Source: an uncultured delta proteobacterium
GTDB taxonomy: Bacteria; Desulfobacterota; Desulfobacteria; Desulfobacterales; B30-G6
NCBI GenBank assembly: GCA_963744665.1
Contig: CAVUUM010000026.1
Location: 97,270-161,269 of the forward strand
Length of the DNA: 64,000 nucleotides
Direction of reading: 5' to 3'
In this document: positions 15,115 to 60,209 of the stretch, one piece after another
Position numbering within the stretch: position 1 is the stretch's first letter
Layout: every line of letters starts with the position of its first letter
Notes under the pieces: model-generated
What the model was told of the DNA's origin: nothing
The model's input: only the letters and a program-made list of their open reading frames with translations
The model's database searches: none
Program-made: the position numbers and the translations under genes

Positions 15115-16500
15115 CTATATGAGTCCTTTGCTCTCTAATCGCTTGACACAATTGATGTCAATATCCAGGATTTTGGCAATACGAATTTTAGCCTCAATTC
15201 CCTTCACACATCCAGGTAGTGGGGAAAGACTGCCCATCTCCAAATCTTCACGGATTTCCGTCATTACCACCGGATCGGAAAGATCATGAACTGAAACACG
15301 CAACTTGTCTGCCACATAGGCCTTGGCGTCGTTTATCTTCATACCACGGGTCATCTGCATTCGTGCCACCAGATCTCCGGCAGCCCGCATTCCACCCATG
15401 CCCGAGGCAATAGCGTGGGAAATAGCCATGCCTAACGGATCACCTACGCCAACCTACAACCCGTCGAGCCGGCAGATTTCCACCATGGCCGCAGAGGCGC
15501 GGGATGTAATGTCCACCGGCGGGTGATTGGTCATGGGAACACCGCCGACGCCCATACCCATGTTCGCATGGATCGGAATGTTGGCCACGTCACAGCAGGC
15601 TTTGGTAAAAGTAATGGCCCGAGCCAGATTCCAGGGGCAGGAATGATTGGTTTTGACATTGACCACCGGTCCAAAAATTGTCACGCCGGCTTTTTCCGCC
15701 ATCCTGACTTGATCATGGGCATACATACCGGCCAAGCGTTCGCCCTGGTACCTCAAATCCCCGTGCATTCCTAGAACAAATTCCCCTGCCATTCCAAGTT
15801 CAATACAGATACCGGGATACTTTTCATTCAGAATTTCAGAAGCCTTCAAACCGGCAAGGAAATCAGCATCCCCCGCCGCACCTACGGTATCAAGATTGAC
15901 ACCGTCTGCTCCGGATTCAACCATGGCGCCGGCAACAAAGACAATATCTTTGACAGCGGCCTCTACTGAATTCTCATAAGATTTTTGAACTTCGTCAATC
16001 TTTCCCATGGTCAACAGTTCCGAGGGATTTTGAAAAGGACCGTCCGGTTGGGTATACAAACCCAGGTTCGGCATGGCACCGTAGAAGAGTGGCGGGTGCG
16101 TCACCATCAATACTTGCTCCAGAACGGTTTGTTCCATGCTCACAATCGGTTTGACCTGCTTGTAGCTGTAGTCGATATGACCCAGTTCAAGGGTATCCGC
16201 TCCCAATAGCTTTTCATAGACCTGCAATGCTTGAACACGATGGACATCGATGGCAGTGCGCATCATCTTGATGGGTGCACCGTCATAAGAAAGTACGACT
16301 TCATTACCAGGTTCCACACCCACAAAACGATACGGTGTCATAAAAAGATCGAACAGGTATAGCAGCGCTTCTTTTGAAAGAGGGGCAATCCTGCCGTATT
16401 TGGCAGCATTTTCCGCACCTTCAACCAGATCGCTCATGAGTTGTTTTTCAGTCATTTCAACGGGAAACCCATCACCCATTCGTGTCATTATTTTTCCCAT
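15115..16500 (-). CDS. mtbB: Dimethylamine:corrinoid methyltransferase with in-frame UAG (pyrrolysine) at 15456..15454
   Basis: ORFs 15454..16500 and 15115..15429 share one frame and are separated only by TAG plus 8 sense codons. The joined sequence reads ...[45 protein letters not shown]. That matches my memory of the region around the Pyl codon in Methanosarcina MtbB. The N-terminal part ([40 protein letters not shown]) is also MtbB-like. The joined length is 461 codons. Confidence 0.85.
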
Positions 16501-16949: not shown

Positions 16950-18449
16950 CTATTTGGAGACTTTGAGTTCCTTTTCTGCTTCCTCCACAATCGCTCGCAT
17001 GGTGGCCAGAACATCATCGGGCAGCGGGTCAGGCTTGTGGGTTTCTAAAATACGCCGCGCCTCTTCCGAAGCCCTTGCATATATATCTGTACTGCCGGAG
17101 GCCTCCCATTCTTCCCGCATCCTGCGATCGATGAGTTTAGGCTGGGATTGAGACCGCATGTGTTTGAACGTGGCATCATGACTGAGGAAATTTTTCCCTA
17201 TCCCAATCTCCCGAATGACGTCCACTGCCAGCGTTTCGTCGTTGACGGGGATTCCATGCAGCAAGAATTTGATCATCTTGGCAAATTCGTTGTCCATAAC
17301 CAGTTGGCCGAAATCGATGGTCATGCCCATTTCGATCATACCCAGGCCGTAAATCAGGTTGGCACCTGCCAACGCTGGTAACAGGCCTGTGATGGTTTTC
17401 TCGTGACCGGACTGGGCATCACAGACTTTGCTGTCGCCCTACCCGCCAGCGACCCAGCTGGGAAGCAGATAGTAGATGGACATTTGAGCCACCGCGGCGT
17501 TGATCAAAGCACACTCAGGAGATCCCACGGATGCGGCAGCCAGCCTCAGATCCATGGCCGTCGTGGAACTGCCGTAAATAAATTTCGCTCCTTTACGGGT
17601 ACACTGACTGAGCACAAGTCCTCCAAGGATTTCCGCGTTATGATCCACCAGGGTGCCGGCCAAGGTCACTGGAGACGAGCCACCGGCCATGGCCATGGAT
17701 AAAACATTTACGGCCAAATCTGCCCGAGCGGATTCCATGATAATTTCACAGCTGTCCTTAACAAGCTGCAGCGGACTCACCGGGCAGGTAATAAACGAAA
17801 TAATGGGACGCTCTTTCAGTTTTTCCTTGCCGCCGACAATGGCAGCGGCCATTTCAACAATTTTTTTGGTCAAATATCCATTGCCGGACCCCATGAACCC
17901 ATGTTTGGTCGTGTTGGGCAGCCAGGCTTCGGCGTTATGAAGCTGCACCGTCTGCGTCGGCACATCACTGGCGCCAACGGCCCGTTCATAAACATCGATT
18001 TCGCTCAGATAGTCGGCAATCAGAGCCGAGGCAGCCACATCCGCCTTGGTCGTCTCCCGATGCTCCCCCGTGTATGGGTCGTTAATAAAAACGCCTTCCC
18101 CAAAATTAGTGAAGCCTACGCGGTTTTTTTCCATAATAAAGTCGTTTTTTGAATCACGCCCGTACAACACAATTTTTGGCGGTGCTGAACGGATGGCGTC
18201 CTCAACCATGTGAGGGGGGAACTTGGCTATACGGTTCTTTTTGTCGATGACAGCGCCTCCGCCATCGAGGACAGCCAGCGCCTCTTCATCCTCGAAAAAA
18301 AGACCGGTCTTTTCCAGAACCTCAAGTGTGGCCAGATGAATTTCATCCATTTCCTCATCGGTAAAGACCTTGAATTCTAGGCCACCATCCCTGCTTTTTC
18401 CTGCTCGCATATTGCGTCTCAAGAAATCACCTCCTTTTGGTTTTACCAA
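16950..18449 (-). CDS. mttB: Trimethylamine:corrinoid methyltransferase with in-frame UAG (pyrrolysine) at 17441..17439
   Basis: ORFs 17439..18449 and 16950..17372 share one frame. I read the codons across the gap as ...[50 protein letters not shown] with no other stop. The joined length is 499 codons, with the UAG at codon 337. That size and position fit my memory of archaeal MttB. Confidence 0.85.
17385..17426 (-). other. 10-bp stem-loop in the mttB mRNA, starting 12 nt 3' of the in-frame UAG
   Basis: In the sense RNA, GUCUGUGAUG (17426..17417) pairs with CAUCACAGGC (17394..17385). That gives 9 Watson-Crick pairs plus one G-U and a 22-nt loop. The G-U position is a C-A mismatch on the opposite strand, so the structure is specific to the sense strand. 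Confidence 0.4.
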
Positions 18450-19588: not shown

Positions 19589-21595
19589 ATGACAGTTGTA
19601 TTGGGTATCGATACGGGCGGGACATATACAGATGCGGTTCTGATCAATTATGAGAACGGCAAAGTCCTGTCGAGTGCCAAGTCTTTGACGACGCACCAGG
19701 ATCTTTCCACCGGTATCCATGCGGCTGTCACGTCCGTTATGACCATCAATCGCAAAGCTATTTCCCCCAAAAAAATCTGCCTTGTGGGTCTGTCCACGAC
19801 CCTTGCTACCAACGCCATTGCAGAAGGGCACGGCGTCCCTGTTTGTCTTCTATTGATAGGGTATGACCGGGACTTGATCCATCAATACCGTTTCCAACAT
19901 GCCTTGGGAACACCCAATGTGGTCTATCTGCAAGGTGGGCATGACCAGCAGGGCAACGAACGTCGACCCCTGAACGAAGATGCCGTCAAAAATACCATTT
20001 TAAAGTGGCGAAAAAAAATCAATGCCTTTGGCGTCTCGGGCTATTTTGGTGCATTCAACCCGGAACACGAATTAAAGGTCAGAACATGGATAGAAGACCT
20101 TACAGATCTTCCGGTGACCTGCGGTCATGAACTTTCCACGCGTCTGGACGCCATCCGCAGGGCAACAACCGTGGCCCTGAATGCCCGATTGATTCCCATC
20201 ATACAAGATCTGATATTCAATGTCCGTGCCACCCTGAAAGCCCTGTCCATTCCGGCACCACTGATGGTGGTAAAGGGTGATGGAAGCCTGGTTCAAGCGG
20301 ATTGGGCCTTGAAGCGGCCCATCGAAACGGTCCTTTCCGGCCCGGCCGCAAGCGCACTGGGGGCCCTGAAACTCACCGGGGGAAAAAATACATGGGCTGT
20401 GGACATGGGCGGAACCACCACTGATATTGTCGAGCTCATTGAAGGTGCGCCGTCGCTCAATCCGAATGGAGCCTGTATTGGCGGATGGCGGACCATGGTT
20501 GAAGCCGTAGATGTTCACACCATAGGACTTGGAGGAGATAGCCATGTCCGTGTGTCTTCCGAAAACCAGTTGGTTATAGGTCCTAATCGTGTCATACCGC
20601 TATGCAAACTGGCCAGTGAATACCCGGACAAGGTAATGGGTACACTGAGAGCCCTTGGTAATTCAGACAAATCTGATCTGGATGCTACCCAGTTTCTGAT
20701 TTCGGGAAAAGCAGAACAACCCCAACTGTCTCAAAACGACGCAACACTATTGGCAAAATTGGATGATGGACCCCAACCGCTGACAACCATCACCGGCCCC
20801 GCTGCTTATGCAGACCCATGGATTTCAAAACGTATCCAGAACCTTGCAGAAACAGGTCTAATTCAATGCGCAGGCTTCACTCCAACGGATGCGCTGCACG
20901 TCCTGAAATGTTTTCAGGAATGGGATGCAGAGGCATCTCTACTGGCGGGCAAACTTCTATCCACCCATCTTGGATTGCCCACAGAAGTATTCTGCAAACA
21001 GGTGGTGGAAACCGTGTCCAGAAAGACCGCAACAGCCATTGCATCCAAGGCTATCACAGACGAAATGGGGAATCCTGATTGGAAACAGGTGCAAACTGAC
21101 GGGTTTCTGCTGAATAAAGCCCTCAAACAAGACCAGAAAGGAAAATTGATTCCAGAAATCAGATTGAAGCATCCCCTGGTCGCTCTGGGTGCGCCGGTAA
21201 CAGCATATATGCCCGGAGCCGCAGATATCCTGAGGACCGGGCTTTCAATTCCTGAATTTGCGGAGGTAGCCAACGCTATCGGAGCTGTCAGCGGTCAAAC
21301 GGTTTTACGACTCAGAATCCGCATCCGACCCATAAGCGGAAGTCAAAACGTCCGGCTTCTTTCCCCTCACAGCCCCAGGGATTTTTCTAATATTGAAGAA
21401 GCCGTTGAATATGCCATGGGTCACATGACACCCCTGGCAGAAGATATGGCACGTCAGGCCGGTGCCAAACATGTGCAGGTGCAGGTAATCCGAAAAGAAA
21501 AAAAGGCCAGAGCGAAAGGAAACAAAGAGGTATTTCTTGAGACCGAATTGACTTTCATAGCCCTTGGAAGACCGGCCATGGCATTTAAACAGTAA
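19589..21595 (+). CDS. Hydantoinase/oxoprolinase-family (ASKHA-fold ATPase) protein
   Basis: 668-aa ORF. The N-terminus VVLGIDTGGTYTDAVL and the later AVDMGGTTTDI are the two phosphate-binding motifs of the hydantoinase A family. Confidence 0.7.
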   Translation: MTVVLGIDTGGTYTDAVLINYENGKVLSSAKSLTTHQDLSTGIHAAVTSVMTINRKAISPKKICLVGLSTTLATNAIAEGHGVPVCLLLIGYDRDLIHQYRFQHALGTPNVVYLQGGHDQQGNERRPLNEDAVKNTILKWRKKINAFGVSGYFGAFNPEHELKVRTWIEDLTDLPVTCGHELSTRLDAIRRATTVALNARLIPIIQDLIFNVRATLKALSIPAPLMVVKGDGSLVQADWALKRPIETVLSGPAASALGALKLTGGKNTWAVDMGGTTTDIVELIEGAPSLNPNGACIGGWRTMVEAVDVHTIGLGGDSHVRVSSENQLVIGPNRVIPLCKLASEYPDKVMGTLRALGNSDKSDLDATQFLISGKAEQPQLSQNDATLLAKLDDGPQPLTTITGPAAYADPWISKRIQNLAETGLIQCAGFTPTDALHVLKCFQEWDAEASLLAGKLLSTHLGLPTEVFCKQVVETVSRKTATAIASKAITDEMGNPDWKQVQTDGFLLNKALKQDQKGKLIPEIRLKHPLVALGAPVTAYMPGAADILRTGLSIPEFAEVANAIGAVSGQTVLRLRIRIRPISGSQNVRLLSPHSPRDFSNIEEAVEYAMGHMTPLAEDMARQAGAKHVQVQVIRKEKKARAKGNKEVFLETELTFIALGRPAMAFKQ

Positions 21596-21789: not shown

Positions 21790-22587
21790 ATGTTAATTGT
21801 TGGAGAACTGATCAATGCAAGCCGAAAGACCATTGGCACGGCCATTGAAATAGAGGACGGGGAAAGCATAGCAAAAATCGCCAGAGATCAGGCCGAAGCC
21901 GGTGCTGATTTTATTGATGTCAATGCCGGTGTTTTTGTCGGTAAAGAGCCTGAATACCTGGAATGGCTGGTGAAAACTGTTCAAGCAGCCGTCGATAAAC
22001 CCTGCTGCATAGACAGCCCGGACCCCAAGGCCATCGAAAAAGCGCTGGCTGCCCACAAAGGCATAGCCATGATCAATTCCATATCCCTGGAAAAAGAACG
22101 CTATGACACCCTGATGCCCATCATTGCCGGAACCGATCTTAAGGTGGTAGCCCTCTGTATGAGCGACGAAGGCATGCCGGAGACCACCTCGGATCGAATG
22201 AGAATTGCCGATAAACTGATCAACGGTCTCATCCAGAATCGTATCCCCTTGGAAAATATCTATGTAGATCCACTGGTTCAACCCGTATCCACGAACAACA
22301 ACTTTGGAGTGGAATTTCTGAACGCCATCCAACAAATTATGAATACATTTGACGGTATTCACACGGTTTGTGGTCTTTCCAATATCTCATTTGGCCTGCC
22401 TCTCAGAAAATTTCTGAATCAGACATTTATGAGCATGGCCATTGCCAAGGGACTTGATGGGGCCATAGTCAACCCGCTGGACAAGAAAATGATGGCCAAT
22501 ATCATTGCAGCAGAAGCCCTTGCCGGCAGGGATGATTATTGCATGTCATACCTCAAGGCCTACCGGGCAGATCTCTTTGCATCTTAA
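21790..22587 (+). CDS. Methyl-corrinoid:tetrahydrofolate methyltransferase (pterin-binding, MtrH/AcsE-like)
   Basis: 265-aa ORF with GELINASRK, AGADFIDVNAG, INSISLE and VCGLSNISFGLP. These are hallmarks of pterin-binding (DHPS-like) methyltransferases found in bacterial corrinoid methyl-transfer systems. Confidence 0.75.
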   Translation: MLIVGELINASRKTIGTAIEIEDGESIAKIARDQAEAGADFIDVNAGVFVGKEPEYLEWLVKTVQAAVDKPCCIDSPDPKAIEKALAAHKGIAMINSISLEKERYDTLMPIIAGTDLKVVALCMSDEGMPETTSDRMRIADKLINGLIQNRIPLENIYVDPLVQPVSTNNNFGVEFLNAIQQIMNTFDGIHTVCGLSNISFGLPLRKFLNQTFMSMAIAKGLDGAIVNPLDKKMMANIIAAEALAGRDDYCMSYLKAYRADLFAS

Positions 22588-22637: not shown

Positions 22638-23279
22638 ATGTCTGAAATAATTTACCAGGAAGCCATGGAGGCTATCCTGAAGGGTGATGTGGACAAAGCC
22701 GTTGACACCGCCAAAAAGGGGATCGACATGGGTATGGATCCTTTGGACCTGATGAACAACGGTTTCATCTCCGGCATCAATGAAGTGGGCGACCTTTTCG
22801 AAACCGGCAGACTTTTTCTGCCCCAGCTGGTTATGTCCGCCTCGGCCATGGAAAAAGCCACGGAAATTATCAATGCGGCCATTCCAGAAGGTAAGGGAAC
22901 CATATCCGGGAAAGTTTTGGTGGGGACGGTCGAGGGCGACGTACACGACATTGGAAAAACCATTGTCGTGGCCCTGTTCAAAGCCAATGGCTTCGATGTA
23001 CTGGATATCGGAAGGGACGCACCCATCGAACGTTTTATTGACGAGGCTGAAAAATTTGGAGCCGATATTATCGGTTCGAGCACCCTTTTAACCACCACCA
23101 TGGCCGTGCAGAAACAGATCGAAGAGGAGTTAAAAAAAGCCGGTATAAGGGATAAATACAAAACCCTTGTGGGCGGTGCTCCTGTAACCCAACGATGGGC
23201 AGACCGAATCGGTGCCGATGCCTATGCCCAGGATGCAAGCGACGGTGTGCGCAAGGTTAAGGAATTGTTAGCAGGCTAG
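22638..23279 (+). CDS. Corrinoid (B12-binding) methyl-carrier protein, MttC/MtbC-like
   Basis: 213-aa ORF with an N-terminal helical cap and GTVEGDVHDIGKTIV (DxHxxG) plus SSTLLTTTM and GGA. It ends in TAG (23277..23279). Confidence 0.85.
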   Translation: MSEIIYQEAMEAILKGDVDKAVDTAKKGIDMGMDPLDLMNNGFISGINEVGDLFETGRLFLPQLVMSASAMEKATEIINAAIPEGKGTISGKVLVGTVEGDVHDIGKTIVVALFKANGFDVLDIGRDAPIERFIDEAEKFGADIIGSSTLLTTTMAVQKQIEEELKKAGIRDKYKTLVGGAPVTQRWADRIGADAYAQDASDGVRKVKELLAG

Positions 23280-23382: not shown

Positions 23383-23456
23383 GGGGAGTGGATCGCAATG
23401 GGATCGTGTGGACTCTAAATCCACATAGACGGGTGCAACTCCCGTACTCCCCGCCA
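23383..23456 (+). tRNA. pylT: tRNA-Pyl, anticodon CUA (amber suppressor), CCA encoded
   Basis: Folded by hand. The acceptor stem pairs GGGGAGU with ACUCCCC. The anticodon stem is 6 bp (UGUGGA/UCCACA) with loop CUCUAAA, placing CUA at 23415..23417. The variable loop is 3 nt (UAG). The T arm is ACGGG-UGCAACU-CCCGU, without the canonical T-loop sequence. The discriminator is G, followed by CCA. A long anticodon stem, short variable loop and single base between acceptor and D stem are the known oddities of tRNA-Pyl. Confidence 0.9.
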
Positions 23457-23533
23457 TTGATCCTTCGGATACCAGTGGCTCTTAGCCCTTGGCTTGTAGC
23501 TAAGCTAAAACCTAAAACATAACACCTAAAACA

Positions 23534-24376
23534 ATGACAATCTCCTGGACACAAACACAGATACGACGACTGAATGCCTTGAATGCCCCGGGCGCGGCAT
23601 TGAAAAAGACCTTCGATGACAAACCCGCGCGTGAGAATGCTTATCAAGCCTTGGAAAAATCACTGGTGATGACTCAGCGACAGCAGTTGGCGGAATTTCA
23701 AACCACGCCCGGCTGTCCCGAACTTTGCCGGCTTGAAACCAGGCTTGTCCGTATTCTGACGCAAGCCGGATTTGCCCAGGTAACGACCCCCATCATCATG
23801 TCCAGGGGACTGTTGAAGAAGATGTCAATCGATGCAAAGCACCCGCTCAATTCCCAAATATTCTGGCTCCAGGACGATAAATGCCTGCGACCGATGCTGG
23901 CGCCCCATCTCTACTATCTCCTGGTTGACCTGCTCCGCGTTTGGGAACGACCTGTACGAATCTTTGAAATTGGCCCCTGCTTCCGAAAAGAATCCAAGGG
24001 AGCGAAACACGCCGGTGAATTTACCATGTTGAACCTGGTTGAAATGGGTACCCCCGAGAAAACCCGGAAAGAAAGAATCCTGAATCTGGGCGCACGTGTG
24101 GCCACGGCAGCAGACGTGAAAGACTTTCGTTTTGAGACAGTGTCCTCGGAAATATACGGCGACACCATCGATATCGTCGCCGGAAAAGACAATCTCGAAA
24201 TTGCCTCTGCCGCCATGGGGCCACATCCTCTGGATCGGCCATGGAAGATAAGTGAATCCTGGATCGGAATCGGTTTTGGTCTCGAACGCCTCCTGATGGC
24301 CTCCCACCAATCCAGGAACCTTGCCAGGTTCTGTCGAAGCCTGTCTTATTTAGACGGCGTCCGGTTAAATATTTGA
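23534..24376 (+). CDS. pylSc: Pyrrolysyl-tRNA synthetase, catalytic C-terminal polypeptide (bacterial split form)
   Basis: 280-aa ORF with class II aaRS motifs LRPMLAP, FEIGPCFRKES and IGIGFGLERLL. It lies immediately 3' of the CUA tRNA. Confidence 0.9.
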   Translation: MTISWTQTQIRRLNALNAPGAALKKTFDDKPARENAYQALEKSLVMTQRQQLAEFQTTPGCPELCRLETRLVRILTQAGFAQVTTPIIMSRGLLKKMSIDAKHPLNSQIFWLQDDKCLRPMLAPHLYYLLVDLLRVWERPVRIFEIGPCFRKESKGAKHAGEFTMLNLVEMGTPEKTRKERILNLGARVATAADVKDFRFETVSSEIYGDTIDIVAGKDNLEIASAAMGPHPLDRPWKISESWIGIGFGLERLLMASHQSRNLARFCRSLSYLDGVRLNI

Positions 24377-24479
24377 GCACTCGGGAAGTTTTTAACCATT
24401 TTGGAGCGGGAGGAAGAATCCACGACCCCGGTACGCCAGCACATGTATAAGGCACCTAAAGAAAGAACAATATTCGATA

Positions 24480-25676
24480 ATGAAAGTAGCGATCATCGGT
24501 GGTAAACTTCAAGGGCTTGAAGCGGCATATCTTGCCGAAAAAGCCGGCTGGGATGTGACAATCATCGATCGGGCGCCCGATGTGCCGGCTGCGGGTCTCT
24601 GCCACCAGTTTTTGCTTGCCGACATTACCAACCAAACAGACTTGAAGCGCTTTCTGCAACCGTTTGACCTAATCATACCGGCCCTGGAGAACCATGACGC
24701 TTTAGCGTGTCTCCAAAATTGCGCACAAAATGACAGAACACGCATTCTTTTCGATTTCGATGCCTATGCCATCACCTCCTCCAAGATTGAATCGGACAAA
24801 CTGCTCGCCGGCATCCACATCCCCACCCCATCATCCTATCCCGACGGTGGTTTTCCTGTTATCGTCAAACCAAGTAGAAGCAGCGGCAGCAAGGGAATTT
24901 GTGTTGTTCATGATTCAAAACAACTTGAATCTCATCTTGCAACGGCACCCGGAGAGCAGGTCATTCAGAAATTTGTCCATGGCCCCTCATACTCCCTGGA
25001 AATCATCGGCTACCCGGGAAACTATTGTCCCCTCCAGGTAACCGAACTTGAAGTGGATCCGGTCTTTGATTGCAAGCGGGTGATTGCCCCCTCGGGTCTT
25101 TCCCAAAAAATGATTGCGGATTTCGAACATATCGCCGTCACCACTGCCAACGCCCTAAAATTAAAGGGTTTGATGGACGTAGAAGTCATTCTGGATTATG
25201 AGGTACTGAGAGTTCTCGAAATCGATGCGCGCCTCCCCAGCCAGACACCCATAACCGTGCATACCTCCACCGGTGTCAACATGCTTCAGTTGCTGGCAGA
25301 GCAACATTGCCGGCCGTCACACAATGGGGCGGGTATTGCTGTTGCCCAGAGAGGTGTCGTGTATGAGCATATCAGGGTTAGCGGCAGCACATTGGTTGTC
25401 ACGGGTGAACATGCCATGGCATCCGCAGGCGCTCTCCATCTGGTAGAGGATTTTTTCGGTGCCGATGAAGCCATCACCTCCCAGACGGGCAACCGGACGG
25501 ATTGGGTGGCGACATTGATCATTTCCGCAGAAAACAGAACCACGGCATGGGAGAAACGGGAGGCGGTTATCGCCGATATTATGCGTTTTTTTAATCTCGA
25601 CACCTACAGGGACCACAGCCCGTTCCATTATGGTGCTGACGAGCCATCCCTGACGTTGAAAGGATCATTCAAGTGA
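24480..25676 (+). CDS. pylC: Pyrrolysine biosynthesis ATP-grasp ligase
   Basis: 398-aa ORF. MKVAIIGGKLQGLEAAYLAEKAGW, FDFDAY, VIVKPS and LEIDARLPSQTP run parallel to my recollection of Methanosarcina PylC. Confidence 0.85.
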   Translation: MKVAIIGGKLQGLEAAYLAEKAGWDVTIIDRAPDVPAAGLCHQFLLADITNQTDLKRFLQPFDLIIPALENHDALACLQNCAQNDRTRILFDFDAYAITSSKIESDKLLAGIHIPTPSSYPDGGFPVIVKPSRSSGSKGICVVHDSKQLESHLATAPGEQVIQKFVHGPSYSLEIIGYPGNYCPLQVTELEVDPVFDCKRVIAPSGLSQKMIADFEHIAVTTANALKLKGLMDVEVILDYEVLRVLEIDARLPSQTPITVHTSTGVNMLQLLAEQHCRPSHNGAGIAVAQRGVVYEHIRVSGSTLVVTGEHAMASAGALHLVEDFFGADEAITSQTGNRTDWVATLIISAENRTTAWEKREAVIADIMRFFNLDTYRDHSPFHYGADEPSLTLKGSFK

Positions 25677-26521
25677 CCCGGCTGACATCAAGTGATATTC
25701 AAGGCATTTCCGAAGAACTGCCCGCATACGAATCATCACTGATGAAAAAAACCGGTTGCTCCCTGCGACAGCTTGCCTGTCGGGCAATGAAAGTGACTGA
25801 AATAGATGTCCAGACATCTTTGGAACACACCCTTGTGGGTGTCATACCCATGACATCGGGTGGCGGCGTATTAAAAGGATTTTGTGGGACTGTGGCAAAG
25901 ATTGTCAACCACATCGGTTGCAGAGCCTTTGCTACACGGAGTACGGATGCTTCGGGTATCGCCGAAGCAGTGGAAAAGAAGGCCGACATCCTCATGTTTG
26001 CCGATGAAAATCGGTTTGTCGCCCTTGATATGCAGCACCGCAAACTCATGGACAATGCCGATGCAACCGGCAGGGGCTTCGTGGCGGGTCTGAACCTCAT
26101 GGCAGAGAGCTTGAACGATCAAAAGGTACTTGTCCTGGGATGTGGTCCGGTGGGGCAGAGCGCGGTGAAGGCCCTGGCAAAAACGGGGTGCCGTATTTCT
26201 GTCTACGACATCGAAACAAAAGCATACGACCGCGTATCAACGGAATTCAAGAACGACCCGGATATTGAGATTCAATTTTTGTACAACCTTGATCTGGCAT
26301 TGCATCAACACGCACTCATGGTCGATGCATCCCCGGCGGGCGGTTTCATTGGGGCGCGGCATATCAGTCCCCATACGATTATCAGTGCTCCCGGTATGCC
26401 TCTTGGCCTTGACAGGTCAGCGCTGGCAGCCATCGGCGGCAGACTCCTCCACGACCCGCTTCAGATCGGGGTGGCAACCATGGTGGTCGGTGCTTTAGCC
26501 CGAACATTTCATGAAATTTGA
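25673..26521 (+). CDS. pylD: Pyrrolysine synthase (NAD-dependent dehydrogenase)
   Basis: 282-aa ORF with IPMTSGGG, ILMFADENRF, VLVLGCGPVGQSA and SAPGMPLG, as in PylD. A 4-nt overlap joins it to pylC. Confidence 0.85.
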   Translation: MTRLTSSDIQGISEELPAYESSLMKKTGCSLRQLACRAMKVTEIDVQTSLEHTLVGVIPMTSGGGVLKGFCGTVAKIVNHIGCRAFATRSTDASGIAEAVEKKADILMFADENRFVALDMQHRKLMDNADATGRGFVAGLNLMAESLNDQKVLVLGCGPVGQSAVKALAKTGCRISVYDIETKAYDRVSTEFKNDPDIEIQFLYNLDLALHQHALMVDASPAGGFIGARHISPHTIISAPGMPLGLDRSALAAIGGRLLHDPLQIGVATMVVGALARTFHEI

Positions 26522-26593
26522 CGAGAAATTTTTATTTATCTTTACATGGCAGCAGGTTGTCATATTATATCAAGTTAATCAGAATATCGAACG

Positions 26594-26935
26594 ATGAAAT
26601 CAAAAAAACCAGCCAAACGATTTTACCGCAAACGGGTGGAGCTTTTCCGTCTGATCGAGAAGATAAAACTCTGGCCAGCCAGAAGCGGTCTCCTCCACGG
26701 TATCAAATCCATCGACATCATGGGTGACCAGGCCCGTATCACAACCCATTGCAATAAAACATTCATGGTGAACAACTCCCGAAACAGCCGCGCGGCAAGA
26801 TGGCTTCGCAACAAATGGTTCAATGGGGCCTGCGGCGCATGCGGTGTCCCTGAGTGGAAACTAGAAAAATATGCGTCCACACAATTCAGACGTCACTTTG
26901 GGTCACAATTGCTGAAAAAGACTGGACCCGAATAA
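26594..26935 (+). CDS. pylSn: Pyrrolysyl-tRNA synthetase N-terminal tRNA-binding polypeptide
   Basis: 113-aa basic ORF (KRFYRKRVELFRLIEKIKLWPARSGLLHGI...HCNK...ARWLRNKW...CGACG). Its size, position after pylD and Cys/His pattern fit bacterial PylSn. Confidence 0.75.
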   Translation: MKSKKPAKRFYRKRVELFRLIEKIKLWPARSGLLHGIKSIDIMGDQARITTHCNKTFMVNNSRNSRAARWLRNKWFNGACGACGVPEWKLEKYASTQFRRHFGSQLLKKTGPE

Positions 26936-27115: not shown

Positions 27116-27805
27116 CTATGACACACCAAATCCCGCTTCAATTTTTGGATCATAGGCAGCCTTTCGAGAAGGACAATCCTTGCGGTCACAAAGCTGGCAA
27201 CTGATAAATGGAACCTCTGTGGGAAAATAGATACCGGACACCGATTTTGCAGGAATCATCAGGCAGCTGCTGTTAAGGGAAACATTGATGGGGGTTTTCC
27301 CATCCCCAAACAAAGCAAACAAAGGCCGCTGTTCTTCCAGAGGCCAATCTGTCAATGACCCCGGGCTCATAAAGGACATACCCTCGAGGCCATACCCCGC
27401 CTGCAGCGTTTGTTCGAGATAGTTTCGCACGGTACTCAGGGCAATGTTGCCGATCACATCCAGATAGTATTTCACCACCAGGTCTTTCTGGGCATCCATC
27501 TGCTCCAGATAATGGCTTCCGATAGTAACAACAAATGGGAACACCCGCTCCACCGCTGCCAGGTTTTTTGCCAGCACCCGGCTCCTGAAACGCACCCCAT
27601 CAATACCGATGAGTTGGTCCTGCTTTTCATCGATATAGCAAACCCGGTAGACCGCTTTTGCCCGAATATCCGGCAAGATCGTCTGGATGAGAGTCTTGAC
27701 TTCGTCCCAGCGTGCACCCCTTTTCAGGTGAAGCTGGCGCCTGATTTCCCCAAAAGGCAAAGATAAAGGTATTTTTTCAAGAATATGCATTTTTTCTTCC
27801 AGCAT
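27116..27805 (-). CDS. Methionine-synthase activation-domain-like protein (corrinoid reactivation domain) with a C-terminal Cys cluster
   Basis: 229-aa ORF. SPGSLTDWPLEEQRPLFALFGDG...INVSLNSSCLMIPAKSVSGIYF resembles the MetH AdoMet/activation domain. The C-terminus reads CQLCDRKDC. It ends in TAG. Confidence 0.55.
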   Translation of the reverse strand: MLEEKMHILEKIPLSLPFGEIRRQLHLKRGARWDEVKTLIQTILPDIRAKAVYRVCYIDEKQDQLIGIDGVRFRSRVLAKNLAAVERVFPFVVTIGSHYLEQMDAQKDLVVKYYLDVIGNIALSTVRNYLEQTLQAGYGLEGMSFMSPGSLTDWPLEEQRPLFALFGDGKTPINVSLNSSCLMIPAKSVSGIYFPTEVPFISCQLCDRKDCPSRKAAYDPKIEAGFGVS

Positions 27806-57035: not shown

Positions 57036-58360
57036 TTAGTACCCAAAATAGATACCGGGCAGCCACAGGGAGATCTGGGGAAACAACATACAAACGACCA
57101 GACCCAGTACCATGACCAGTACAAAGGGCACAATGGAACGGTATATATCCGCCAGGGACACCTCCTTGGGCGCCATGGCTTTCATCAGAAACAGGTTATA
57201 GCCAAAAGGCGGCGTCATATAAGCAATCTGGCAGGTAATCGTATACAGAACACCGTACCAGATCGGGTTGTAACCCAGTTCGATAACCAGGGGCACATAC
57301 AGCGGTGCAACAATGATCAGCATGGCCGTGTCGTCCAGAAACATACCCATCAGGATGTAGGACAGCTGCATCATCACGAGTATCCCAAAGGGACTGAGAC
57401 CCCATTGGTCCAGAAACAGTCTTTTTATGGCATGCACGGCACCAAGACCGTCAAAAACGGCACCAAAGCAGAGTGCTGCCAGAATCACCCACATGAACAT
57501 GCAGCTGACGCTCAGGGTAAGCTTTAGTGTCTCTTCCAGCACCTGCCGGTTTAATCGTTTTTTGAGAAAAGCCACAAGGGTCGTTACCGCCGCACCGGCT
57601 GCAGAACACTCAACCAGACTGGTGATCCCCATCAGAAACAGGCCTGTCATGGAAAAAATAATGACCAGGGGAATGATCCCGGCCCTGAGCAGTCGAAATT
57701 TTTCTCCCCAGGTGATTTGCGCCAGCTCTTCTTTGGATAAGGCTGGACCCAGGTGCGGCTGAAGTCTGCATCGAATAGCGATGTAAGCAATAAACAAGAC
57801 CGCTAACAAGAGTCCGGGGAAAACACCGGCCAGCCACAGCTGGCCCACCGGTTGTCTGGCGATCATACCGTAAAGAACCAGGACCACGCTGGGGGGCACC
57901 ATGATCCCCAGGGAACTTCCCGCCTGGATGACGCCGGTAACCATGACCTTGTCATATTTTCGCTTTAGCATTTCAGGCATGGCAAGGCTGGCCCCGATGG
58001 CCATGCCGGCCACACTCAAGCCGTTCATGGCTGATACGGCAACCATGAGCCCCATGGTCCCGATGGCAAGCCCGCCGTGAATGGCCCCATCCAGACATGA
58101 AACATTCTGTAAAGATCGCTGGCTATTCCCGACTCGGAAAACATATATCCCATGTATATAAACAGCGGCAGCGTCAGGAGCGGATACCAGTTCAGCAGGG
58201 CAAAACTCGCGTTAAAGGGCATCTCCGCCGCACCCTCTCCCCATAGCATCAATGCAAAAACTGTTGCCACGCCACCAATGGCACCAAAAACACGCTGCCC
58301 GGTGAGAAGCATGAGCATCATCGAGAAAAAAATCAAAACGGCAATTATTTCATAACTCAT
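57036..58360 (-). pseudogene. dctM: TRAP transporter large permease (DctM), frameshifted
   Basis: ORFs 58025..58417 and 57036..58055 are consecutive DctM sequence in different frames. The junction HVWMG|AIHGGLAIGTMGLMV sits at a G-run near 58085. Confidence 0.75.
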
Positions 58361-59160: not shown

Positions 59161-60209
59161 TTAATACCGGTAAGGAGGACCGGCATCTCTCATGGTTTGG
59201 GCATAATCTTTAAGTATCTTGACAACCTTGGCATTCTCTGCCGCTTTTTGCGGCTGTCTCGTCCCAAAATTTCATTGCGGCATCTTCCACCTGCTTCCAC
59301 TCTTCACGGGAATCGAAGTAAGCTTAAGTTTTCCGCCCTTGGTGCGGTAGTGTGCCTCTCCCCACCAATACCAGTGCTGCCGGTAATAGTTGCAACTGTC
59401 CATTTGCAGACGGAACAAGGTTTTCAGATGTTCTGGCAGGGCATTCCATGAATCGGAATTCGCAAAATACGAACCCGCCCATGCGCCGGATATGGGGTTG
59501 GTCAGATAATACTCGGTGACATCCGCCCAGCCCACTGTATAATCCTCTGTGATGCCGGACCAGGCAACACCGTCAAGTTCGCCCGTCTGAACGGCCATCT
59601 CGATGTCTTCCTAGGGAAGGGCCATGGGATAACACCGAACTGCTGCATGAATCTACCGCCGGTGGGAAAGCTGAACACTCTCAGACCCTTGAGGTCTGCG
59701 AGGCTTCTAATGGGCTTGGTGGTAGCGAAGTTACAGGGGTCCCAGGCGCCAGAACTCAGCCAGGTAACACCTTTTACCTCGGAGAACGCTTCCTCCCAGA
59801 TTTCGTTCAGCCCATACCAGTTCCACAGCGTTGGAACATCCAGCGAGTAACGTGAGGCAAAGGGAAAATAGGCGCCAAAGATGGAAACATCCACGGGCGC
59901 TGCAATGGAGTCGTCATCACTTTGGACGGCATCGATGGTACCCTTCTGCATGGCCCTGAAAAGTTCACCCGTTGGCACCAGCTGATCGGAGTTGTAGAGC
60001 TCGATCACCATCTCTCCATTAGCGGCTTTGTTAAACGCATCGATGGCCGGTTTACAGACATGCGCTGCCAAGGCCGGGCCGGCGTAAGTTTGCATTCGCC
60101 ATTTGATGGTGGTTTTCTTGGCAGCATGCACAAAGGGTGCATTGACTGCGGTAGCTGCTACCGCTGCTGCACCCACACCTGCTTTTTTGATAAATTCGCG
60201 TCTTTTCAT
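59161..60209 (-). pseudogene. dctP: TRAP transporter substrate-binding protein (DctP family, Tat signal), multiple frameshifts plus in-frame TAG
   Basis: A Tat motif (MKRREFIKKAG) opens the gene. Family sequence continues across frame changes near 59627, near 59290 and near 59240, ending ...ILKDYAQTMRDAGPPYRY*. There is an in-frame TAG at 59613..59611. Confidence 0.7.

What the first reader, a model, noticed from the sequence alone, without database searches (positions are those of the whole stretch)
23383..26935. Bacterial split pyrrolysine cassette pylT-pylSc-pylC-pylD-pylSn with no pylB
What the sequence shows:
- A hand-foldable CUA tRNA with tRNA-Pyl hallmarks is followed by pylSc, pylC, pylD and pylSn.
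- Only 103 nt separate the pylSc stop (24376) from the pylC start (24480).
- I see no radical-SAM (CxxxCxxC) ORF anywhere in the 64 kb.

Established background:
- PylB makes 3-methyl-D-ornithine from lysine, and PylC and PylD then complete pyrrolysine.
- In the bacterial clusters I remember, pylB sits between pylSc and pylC.
- Without PylB, PylC/PylD can still use D-ornithine to give desmethylpyrrolysine.

Inference: three explanations are possible.
- pylB is unlinked.
- The 22nd amino acid here is a variant.
- Another enzyme supplies the ornithine derivative.

Two UAG-containing methyltransferase genes next door argue that the system is in use.
Basis: partly seen in the sequence, partly recalled or inferred. 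Interest (0 to 1): 0.8.

Follow-up and report, generated by a model that had tools for sequence, protein, structure and literature searches.

The report
Pyrrolysine gene cluster missing its pylB
This sediment bacterium has a working-looking gene set for the 22nd amino acid, pyrrolysine, that has lost one of its three biosynthesis genes (pylB); the gene most likely sits elsewhere in the genome, so this is probably a rearranged ordinary system rather than a new amino acid.

Summary
tRNA-Pyl(CUA), pylSc, pylC, pylD and pylSn lie at the stated coordinates and pass the curated models. The pylSc–pylC spacer is 103 nt. No PylB or radical-SAM gene exists in the 64 kb.

The pylB-less order recurs in five relatives (62–96% PylD identity), so it is not an assembly artefact. 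Four other close relatives (66–77% PylD identity where pylD is on the contig) keep pylB between pylSc and pylC. The tree implies two or three independent losses.

The system stays under selection after the loss:
- pylC and pylD dN/dS are the same in pylB-less and pylB-containing pairs.
- The in-frame UAG of mttB and mtbB is conserved.
- No conserved residue changes convergently.

A bona fide stand-alone pylB sits in a conserved aminotransferase–AOR–pylB–ABC transporter operon. That operon occurs in compositionally matched Desulfobacterales contigs, once in the same sample as a pylB-less cluster. Eight of 73 species-level bacterial pylB loci are unlinked from pylCD.

Best reading (about 0.75): pylB acts in trans and ordinary pyrrolysine is made. 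I could not show both loci in one genome, so a truly pylB-free lineage using desmethylpyrrolysine (about 0.1) is not excluded.

The parts
23383..23456 (+). pylT, tRNA-Pyl with CUA anticodon
   Evidence: ARAGORN. The fold shows tRNA-Pyl hallmarks, z = -3.2. The gene is 98% conserved in five relatives.
23534..24376 (+). pylSc, catalytic subunit of pyrrolysyl-tRNA synthetase
   Evidence: TIGR02367, 310 bits against a cut-off of 178. dN/dS is 0.12-0.16.
24377..24479 (.). 103-nt pylSc-pylC spacer, the place where pylB sits in sister clusters (deletion site)
   Evidence: No pylB remnant by blastn-short. The start of the spacer is homologous in window, L025 and L001. L004 (51 nt) and L005 (19 nt) have different spacers.
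24480..25676 (+). [quoted passage not shown]
   Evidence: TIGR03909, 397 bits against 248. dN/dS is 0.17-0.22 within the pylB-less subclade.
25673..26521 (+). pylD, 3-methylornithyl-N6-L-lysine dehydrogenase
   Evidence: TIGR03911, 240 bits against 150, and PF21455. dN/dS is 0.22-0.29 within the pylB-less subclade.
26594..26935 (+). pylSn, tRNA-binding small subunit of PylRS
   Evidence: TIGR03912, 132 bits against 51. dN/dS is 0.04-0.12.
15115..16500 (-). mtbB, dimethylamine methyltransferase with in-frame UAG at 15454-15456
   Evidence: Translation. Rfam PYLIS_2, 88 bits, at 15357-15456. The TAG is at codon 349 in four loci, and the sequence downstream of it is 92-93% identical.
16950..18449 (-). 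mttB, trimethylamine methyltransferase with in-frame UAG at 17439-17441
   Evidence: Translation. Rfam PYLIS_3, 78 bits, at 17342-17441. The TAG position is conserved, and the sequence downstream of it is 99-100% identical.
19589..21595 (+). HyuA-like ASKHA ATPase (668 aa), conserved accessory gene of the locus with unknown role; inferred to serve the corrinoid system
   Evidence: Pfam Hydant_A_N and Hydantoinase_A. The PDB sequence search matches only residues 4-334. Present in all pylB-less loci and absent from L094. Also found beside the pylB-containing clusters L044 and L163.
21790..22587 (+). methyl-tetrahydrofolate:corrinoid methyltransferase (pterin-binding)
   Evidence: NF005719, 353 bits, and PF00809.
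22638..23279 (+). cognate corrinoid protein of the methylamine methyltransferases
   Evidence: TIGR02370 pyl_corrinoid, 238 bits against 215.
27116..27805 (-). 229-aa protein with weak similarity to the MetH reactivation domain; conserved downstream of pylSn
   Evidence: PF02965, E = 7.6e-4, below the Pfam threshold. A gene of similar size lies in the same position in L001, L004 and L005.

Best explanation
This is a functional bacterial split pyrrolysine system in an uncultured Desulfobacterales bacterium. It comprises pylT, pylSc, pylC, pylD and pylSn, next to Pyl-dependent mttB and mtbB and their corrinoid partners. The pylB gene was deleted from its ancestral place between pylSc and pylC.

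Proposed mechanism:
- (3R)-3-methyl-D-ornithine is supplied in trans by a pylB encoded elsewhere in the genome.
- The most likely source is the stand-alone pylB found in a conserved operon: pterin methyltransferase, GABA-type aminotransferase, aldehyde:ferredoxin oxidoreductase, pylB, Liv-type ABC transporter.
- PylC and PylD then make ordinary pyrrolysine.
- PylSc/PylSn charge tRNA-Pyl, and the UAG in mttB and mtbB is read as Pyl.

Shown here: gene identities, absence of pylB from the 64 kb, conservation of the pylB-less arrangement, its derived and repeated origin, continued purifying selection, and the existence of stand-alone pylB operons in compositionally matched genomes.

Inferred: that the stand-alone pylB lies in the same genome as this cluster.
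For: 1. Gene identities and absence of pylB from the window.

2. The same pylB-less order with the same flanks occurs in L001, L004, L005/L006 and L025. L160 repeats it at 96-99% protein identity in an independent JGI assembly.

3. Sister clusters L094, L037, L031 and L030 keep pylB between pylSc and pylC. Their PylB sequences form one clade that co-diverges with PylC and PylD, so pylB is ancestral.

4. NJ bootstrap analysis:
- The clade has support 1.0.
- The pylB-less loci were monophyletic in 0 of 300 replicates.
- Within-clade parsimony needs 2 changes in 81% of 500 replicates, 3 in 6% and 1 in 13%.
- Spacer sequences differ between the loss lineages.
- Repeated loss of one gene is what redundancy predicts.

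5. dN/dS within the pylB-less subclade equals that of the pylB-containing pair L094-L037: pylC 0.17-0.22 against 0.18, and pylD 0.22-0.29 against 0.28.

6. The in-frame TAG of mtbB and mttB is conserved, and sequence downstream of it is 92-100% identical. tRNA-Pyl is 98% conserved.

7. No convergent substitution occurs at the 98, 102 and 48 columns that are at least 90% conserved in PylSc, PylC and PylD.

8. Stand-alone pylB:
- The three scanned (L082, L090, L091) pass TIGR03910 at 455-461 bits against a cut-off of 348.
- The operon is conserved in L082 and L090-L093.
- L091 comes from the same sample (ERZ25039603) as pylB-less L004.
- L090 comes from a JGI sample numbered next to that of L005.
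- With only non-homologous parts of the window as reference, four of the five stand-alone loci rank in the top 10 of 66 loci by tetranucleotide signature. The other places go to all five pylB-less clade loci and one interloper.

9. Unlinked pylB is common. Eight of 73 determinable species-level bacterial PylB loci have no pylC or pylD within 4-10 kb.

10. There is an archaeal precedent: in 'Ca. M. alvus' pylB lies about 0.7 Mb from pylTSCD (PMC3941956).
Against: - No genome was shown to hold both the pylB-less cluster and a pylB. The window's own contig and genome could not be retrieved.
- No PylB hit shares a contig with any pylB-less cluster, on contigs of 170-525 kb.
- The contigs carrying pylB in the shared samples (L091, L009) are recorded from ENA only, whereas the pylB-less contigs L001 and L004 are also in an NCBI assembly. 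They were apparently not deposited in the same bin.
- The one clade genome in the species-representative collection (L025, MFD03804.bin.3.160) showed no PylB among the 80 loci kept. The cut-off fell exactly in the score range of the stand-alone type, so this result is uninformative.
- The other pylB found in a shared sample (L009) groups by sequence and composition with a different lineage.
- Composition shows relatedness of genomes, not identity.
Confidence: 0.75

Rival explanations
1. The genome has no pylB at all. PylC and PylD use D-ornithine (or an imported 3-methylornithine, or imported pyrrolysine from neighbours), and the UAG codons are read as desmethylpyrrolysine (pyrroline-carboxy-lysine) or as scavenged Pyl.
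For: - No pylB lies in 64 kb or on any pylB-less contig of 170-525 kb.
- No same-genome pylB was demonstrated.
- The loss occurred two or three times and the clusters persist.
Against: - Selection on pylC and pylD is unchanged, and no conserved residue changes in the independent loss lineages. Some pocket adaptation would be expected after a substrate change.
- No ornithine racemase or other D-ornithine source appears among the window's Pfam hits.
- A bona fide stand-alone pylB operon occurs in compositionally matched genomes and in a shared sample.
- Repeated loss is explained more simply by redundancy.
Confidence: 0.12
2. A non-homologous enzyme encoded near the cluster replaces PylB. The candidate is the HyuA-like ATPase at 19589-21595, which is present in all pylB-less loci and absent from pylB-containing L094.
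For: Within the clade, presence and absence are complementary: five pylB-less loci have the gene and L094 lacks it. Its C-terminal 335 residues match no Pfam family or solved structure.
Against: - Homologues at 51-52% identity sit beside clusters that do contain pylB (L044, L163). More distant ones at 33% identity sit near pylB in L009 and L011.
- The recognisable half is an ATPase of the oxoprolinase/hydantoinase type. That chemistry cannot perform the radical carbon-skeleton rearrangement of lysine (established knowledge of PylB as a radical-SAM lysine mutase, PMC11467909).
- Only one pylB-containing clade member has a readable upstream region, so the contrast rests on n = 1.
Confidence: 0.03
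3. The cassette is a decaying remnant and UAG read-through no longer occurs.
For: One of the three biosynthetic genes is missing. Several genes elsewhere in the window look fragmentary.
Against: - All five remaining pyl genes are intact in six loci at 62-96% PylD identity, with dN/dS of 0.04-0.31.
- mttB and mtbB keep the TAG, and sequence after it is 92-100% identical.
- tRNA-Pyl is 98% conserved.
Confidence: 0.03

Closest known systems
Desulfitobacterium hafniense-type bacterial pyl cluster (pylT-pylSc-pylB-pylC-pylD-pylSn)
   Same: Split PylRS (pylSc plus pylSn), the same gene order and orientation, tRNA-Pyl upstream, and adjacency to Pyl-dependent methylamine methyltransferase and corrinoid genes. 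Most of the bacterial loci fetched here have this order (PMC11467909).
   Different: pylB is missing from between pylSc and pylC; a 103-nt spacer takes its place.
'Candidatus Methanomethylophilus alvus' pyl arrangement (pylTSCD with pylB about 0.7 Mb away)
   Same: A pylT-pylS-pylC-pylD cluster without pylB, with pylB unlinked in the same genome (PMC3941956). This is the arrangement proposed here.
   Different: That organism is an archaeon with a single-piece PylS lacking the N-terminal domain, and its pylB is proven to lie in the same closed genome. Here the host is a Desulfobacterales bacterium with split PylS, and co-residence of pylB is inferred, not shown.
Olavius algarvensis delta-1 symbiont and marine Deltaproteobacteria Pyl systems
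   Same: Sulfate-reducer-related bacteria from marine sediment or symbiosis, with pylT, pylSn and pylSc and with UAG-containing mttB and mtbB (PMC1976440; PMC8318568).
   Different: The delta-1 symbiont is reported with pylB-pylC-pylD genes. The pylB-less arrangement is not described in either paper.
Engineered E. coli pylTSCD fed D-ornithine (desmethylpyrrolysine / pyrroline-carboxy-lysine)
   Same: The same gene content as this window: pylT, pylS, pylC and pylD without pylB (PMC11467909).
   Different: That is a laboratory construct dependent on added D-ornithine. Here there is no evidence for a D-ornithine source or for adaptation of PylC, PylD or PylS.

Membership tests
Bacterial split pyrrolysine system | tRNA-Pyl with CUA anticodon and atypical cloverleaf | tested here: met
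   ARAGORN call at 23383-23456. The fold shows tRNA-Pyl hallmarks. Conserved in relatives.
Bacterial split pyrrolysine system | PylSc and PylSn encoded as separate genes | tested here: met
   TIGR02367 at 310 bits (cut-off 178) and TIGR03912 at 132 bits (cut-off 51).
Bacterial split pyrrolysine system | PylC and PylD | tested here: met
   TIGR03909 at 397 bits (cut-off 248) and TIGR03911 at 240 bits (cut-off 150).
Bacterial split pyrrolysine system | PylB (radical-SAM methylornithine synthase) within the cluster | tested here: not met
   tblastn best E = 3.3. No Radical_SAM Pfam hit among the window ORFs scanned. The pylSc-pylC spacer is 103 nt.
Bacterial split pyrrolysine system | PylB somewhere in the same genome | tested here: inconclusive
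   The window's genome is not retrievable. Stand-alone pylB operons occur in matched genomes and in one shared sample, but co-residence is not shown.
Bacterial split pyrrolysine system | Client genes with a conserved in-frame UAG (mttB, mtbB) | tested here: met
Bacterial split pyrrolysine system | Pyrrolysine actually inserted at UAG | not testable with these tools
   Needs mass spectrometry of the MttB or MtbB peptides.
Unlinked-pylB arrangement ('Ca. M. alvus' type) | pylT-S-C-D cluster without pylB, and pylB at a distant locus of the same genome | tested here: inconclusive
   The first half is met. The second half rests on composition, sample co-occurrence and the pattern of repeated loss.
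Natural desmethylpyrrolysine (pylB-free) system | No pylB in the genome | not testable with these tools
   Only 64 kb of the genome is available.
Natural desmethylpyrrolysine (pylB-free) system | A D-ornithine source and/or adaptation of PylC, PylD or PylS to the unmethylated substrate | tested here: not met
   No racemase-like gene among the window's Pfam hits. No convergent change at conserved positions. dN/dS is unchanged.

The most novel reading that the evidence does not exclude
This Desulfobacterales lineage has no pylB anywhere in its genome. It either inserts desmethylpyrrolysine made from D-ornithine, or depends on 3-methylornithine or pyrrolysine released by neighbours. Either would be a naturally occurring 23rd-amino-acid-like variant, or a community-dependent genetic code.
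Probability: 0.1. Interest if true: 0.8.

Novelty: new variant of a known kind. Interest (0 to 1): 0.3.

Why it matters
If pylB acts in trans, the practical lesson is for annotation and surveys. Pyl-decoding bacteria cannot be recognised by requiring pylB, pylC and pylD to be adjacent. At least one published survey filtered on that basis (PMC9723677), yet 8 of 73 species-level bacterial pylB loci fetched here are unlinked from pylCD.

It also gives a small evolutionary case study. The in-cluster pylB was lost two or three times, apparently because a second copy sits inside a separate amine-catabolism operon.

If the lineage truly lacks pylB, it would be the first natural system expected to encode desmethylpyrrolysine or to rely on cross-feeding of a genetically encoded amino acid. 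That would be of real interest, but the evidence makes it unlikely.

Tried and rejected
- Exact look-ups of the window's PylC and PylD found no contig. The source genome could not be retrieved, so pylB could not be searched in it directly.
- P0194/L009 is a pylB in the same sample as L001, and at first looked like the missing gene. Its sequence groups with L010 and L011, whose PylC is about 49% identical to the window's. Its composition matches L011 (0.95) better than L001 (0.90). I rejected it as probably another organism.
- Matching 'longest_contig' values between the PylB and PylD hit lists tested for pylB on the same contig. There were no matches for the pylB-less contigs. Matches occurred only for clusters taken to have in-cluster pylB.
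- A concatenated PylD+PylB query in the single genome-contig scan worked technically.
- The last two contig look-ups (P0280, P0013) gave different assemblies, so there was no same-MAG proof. P0013 did reveal L094, a pylB-containing sister.
- The metagenome scan gave only one clade PylD contig (L160). A sample-level co-occurrence statistic was therefore not possible.
- A search for pylB remnants in the spacers found only the pylSc 3' end and the pylC ribosome-binding region.
- The HyuA-like ATPase was considered as a PylB substitute and rejected, because it co-occurs with pylB elsewhere.
- A literature search for hydantoinase with corrinoid activase returned nothing.


Full report
**Observation**

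The window is 48.9% G+C. ARAGORN finds tRNA-Pyl (anticodon CTA) at 23383-23456. It folds into a cloverleaf with one base between the acceptor and D stems, a long anticodon stem, a two-base variable region and no T-psi-C motif.

Four ORFs downstream pass the NCBIfam equivalog cut-offs:
- pylSc, 23534-24376: 310 bits against 178.
- pylC, 24480-25676: 397 bits against 248.
- pylD, 25673-26521: 240 bits against 150.
- pylSn, 26594-26935: 132 bits against 51.

The pylSc-pylC spacer is 103 nt.

On the minus strand upstream lie two Pyl-dependent genes. mtbB is 15115-16500 with TAG at 15454-15456. mttB is 16950-18449 with TAG at 17439-17441. Each has an Rfam PYLIS match just after the TAG.

Between them and pylT lie TerC, a HyuA-like ATPase, a pterin-binding methyltransferase and the cognate corrinoid protein.

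**No pylB in the window**

A genuine bacterial PylB was taken from L007, which has a canonical pylSc-pylB-pylC-pylD-pylSn cluster. By tblastn it finds nothing in the window better than E = 3.3. Pfam scans of the plausible ORFs of 180 aa or more show no Radical_SAM domain. The CxxxCxxC matches fall in a zinc alcohol-dehydrogenase domain and in frames judged to be shadow ORFs.

**Is the arrangement real and conserved?**

The window's PylD (P0001) is on record on a 299,681-bp contig, but that contig cannot be retrieved. Relatives can be.

- L001 (76% PylD identity), L004 (73%), L005/L006 (62%) and L025 (83%) all show pylT-pylSc-pylC-pylD-pylSn without pylB. Their flanks are largely the same.
- L160, a JGI sediment contig, carries the same cluster at 96-99% protein identity with the same spacer of about 103 nt.

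The arrangement is therefore a lineage trait of an uncultured Desulfobacterales group, not an assembly artefact.

**Ancestral state and number of losses**

Four other close relatives keep pylB between pylSc and pylC:
- L094: PylD 76%, with the same mttB-TerC-methyltransferase-corrinoid flank.
- L037: PylC 77%, PylD 73%.
- L031: PylSc 84%, PylC 79%.
- L030: PylC 68%, PylD 66%.

Their PylB sequences form one clade, 75-82% identical to each other. That matches the divergence of their PylC and PylD, so pylB is ancestral to this cluster type.

In NJ trees of PylC+PylD the clade has bootstrap support 1.0. Window+L025+L001 also has 1.0, and L005 is basal in 0.84 of replicates. The pylB-less loci were monophyletic in 0 of 300 replicates. 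Within-clade parsimony needs 2 state changes in 81% of 500 replicates, 3 in 6% and 1 in 13%.

The best tree is (L005,(L030,((window,(L001,L025)),(L004,(L037,L094))))). All outgroups carry pylB, so this implies two or three independent losses.

The spacers agree with that. Window, L025 and L001 share a homologous spacer start, while L004 (51 nt) and L005 (19 nt) differ. None holds a pylB remnant.

**Is the system still in use?**

- Within the pylB-less subclade, dN/dS is 0.15-0.16 for pylSc, 0.17-0.22 for pylC and 0.22-0.29 for pylD. The pylB-containing pair L094-L037 gives 0.12, 0.18 and 0.28.
- The TAG is at the same codon in all loci compared. Sequence after it is 92-93% identical for mtbB and 99-100% for mttB.
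- tRNA-Pyl is 98% conserved.

A decaying cassette is excluded.

**Is there a sign of a different amino acid?**

I examined the 98, 102 and 48 alignment columns that are at least 90% conserved among PylSc, PylC and PylD of pylB-containing clusters. The pylB-less proteins deviate only sporadically, or together with their pylB-containing sisters. No conserved position changes convergently in the independent loss lineages. The window also encodes no racemase-like source of D-ornithine.

**Where could pylB be?**

Two database searches with PylB found no PylB on any contig that carries a pylB-less cluster.

They did reveal a well-populated group of stand-alone pylB genes.
- The three scanned (L082, L090, L091) pass TIGR03910 at 455-461 bits against a cut-off of 348.
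- They sit in a conserved operon: pterin methyltransferase, GABA-type aminotransferase, aldehyde:ferredoxin oxidoreductase, pylB, five-gene Liv-type ABC transporter, ferredoxin-domain protein. This is seen in L082, L090-L093 and L096.
- In L090 a UAG-containing mtbB and a corrinoid gene are inserted.

Links to the pylB-less clade:
- L091 comes from sample ERZ25039603, the sample of L004.
- L090 comes from a JGI sample numbered next to that of L005.
- I used only the parts of the window that share no genes with any locus as the reference. By tetranucleotide z-score correlation, the ten best of 66 loci are the five pylB-less clade loci, four of the five stand-alone loci and one interloper. Raw-frequency correlations of 0.94-0.95 lie above the range seen between segments of the window itself, 0.88-0.94.

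A different pylB, L009, shares a sample with L001. It groups with another lineage by sequence and composition, so I set it aside.

**How unusual is an unlinked pylB?**

Among species-representative genomes, 65 of 78 PylB loci have pylC or pylD alongside. Eight have neither within 4-10 kb on both sides, including a chromosome-level Desulfobacterium MAG. Five are undetermined.

In archaea, 'Ca. M. alvus' has pylB about 0.7 Mb from pylTSCD (PMC3941956). In the searched literature I found no description of this arrangement in bacteria. One survey excluded PylB, PylC and PylD homologues that were not on the same contig (PMC9723677).

**Interpretation**

The most economical reading is that this lineage carried two pylB copies, one in the cluster and one in the aminotransferase-AOR operon. 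The redundant in-cluster copy was then deleted repeatedly. Ordinary pyrrolysine is made with PylB acting in trans. I give this about 0.75.

The main weakness is that I could not place both loci in one genome:
- The source genome was not retrievable.
- The one genome scan was truncated exactly in the relevant score range.
- The shared-sample pylB contigs are not recorded in the NCBI assemblies that hold the pylB-less contigs.

A truly pylB-free lineage therefore remains possible at about 0.1. It would use D-ornithine to make desmethylpyrrolysine, as engineered E. coli does (PMC11467909), or scavenge the precursor.

A substitute enzyme is unlikely. The HyuA-like ATPase tracks pylB absence within the clade, but it accompanies pylB-containing clusters elsewhere.

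**Verdict**

This is a rearranged variant of a known system, with modest evolutionary and annotation interest.

Noticed in passing
L082:5991-17971; also L090, L091, L092, L093, L096: A conserved operon places a bona fide pylB between an aldehyde:ferredoxin oxidoreductase and a Liv-type ABC transporter. It is preceded by a pterin methyltransferase and a GABA-type aminotransferase. In L090 a UAG-containing mtbB and a corrinoid gene are inserted. It looks like a Pyl-dependent catabolic operon for a methylated amino compound that carries its own pylB.
   Followed up: partly
window:19589-21595: A 668-aa protein whose N-terminal half (about residues 4-334) resembles the ATPase part of 5-oxoprolinase and N-methylhydantoinase. 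Its C-terminal half matches nothing. It is present in all five pylB-less loci and absent from pylB-containing L094. Homologues also sit beside the pylB-containing clusters L044 and L163, and the gene is fused to DUF1638 in L009. Its role in methylamine/corrinoid loci is unknown.
   Followed up: partly
window:15115-15117 and 16950-16952: Both Pyl-containing genes also end in TAG. mtbB codon 462 is TAG in all four loci compared, and mttB codon 500 is TAG in four of five. In a UAG-decoding cell these terminators could be read through. In mtbB the next stops are a TAG 29 codons on and a TGA 35 codons on.
   Followed up: partly
L009:8590-11119 compared with L010 and L011: L009 has mtbB-pylB followed by an aminotransferase and no pylC or pylD. 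Its nearest relatives, L010 and L011, have pylB-pylC-pylD. This is a second, independent way of splitting the biosynthetic genes.
   Followed up: partly
L019, L046, L052, L061, L064, L068, L071, L082: Eight of 73 determinable species-level bacterial PylB loci have no pylC or pylD within 4-10 kb. Recurrent layouts include pylSn-corrinoid-methyltransferase-pylB (L046, L052, L068) and pylB-pylSn (L019).
   Followed up: partly
window:27785-28912: A REP-associated (IS200-like Y1) tyrosine transposase homologue with an extra C-terminal stretch that weakly resembles DnaA domain IV. A Y1_Tnp gene lies at the same position downstream of the pyl cluster in L001 and L004, which suggests a fixed, possibly domesticated copy.
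   Followed up: no
window:54657-55718, 57036-58055, 59502-60209: Partial matches only: an aldehyde:ferredoxin oxidoreductase covering parts of both domains in 353 aa, a DctM starting at profile position 98, and a DctP fragment. These are either pseudogenes or frameshift errors of a long-read assembly.
   Followed up: no
L005:758-3639: The most basal pylB-less relative has an uninterrupted MttB-superfamily gene (483 aa, 31% identical, no UAG) plus an APH-family kinase where the window has UAG-containing mttB and mtbB.
   Followed up: no
L001:6929-7684 and L004:6902-7495: These two pylB-less relatives also lack the pterin-binding methyltransferase gene found between the HyuA-like gene and the corrinoid gene in window, L005 and L025. 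A paralogue at 72-78% identity heads most of the stand-alone pylB operons.
   Followed up: no
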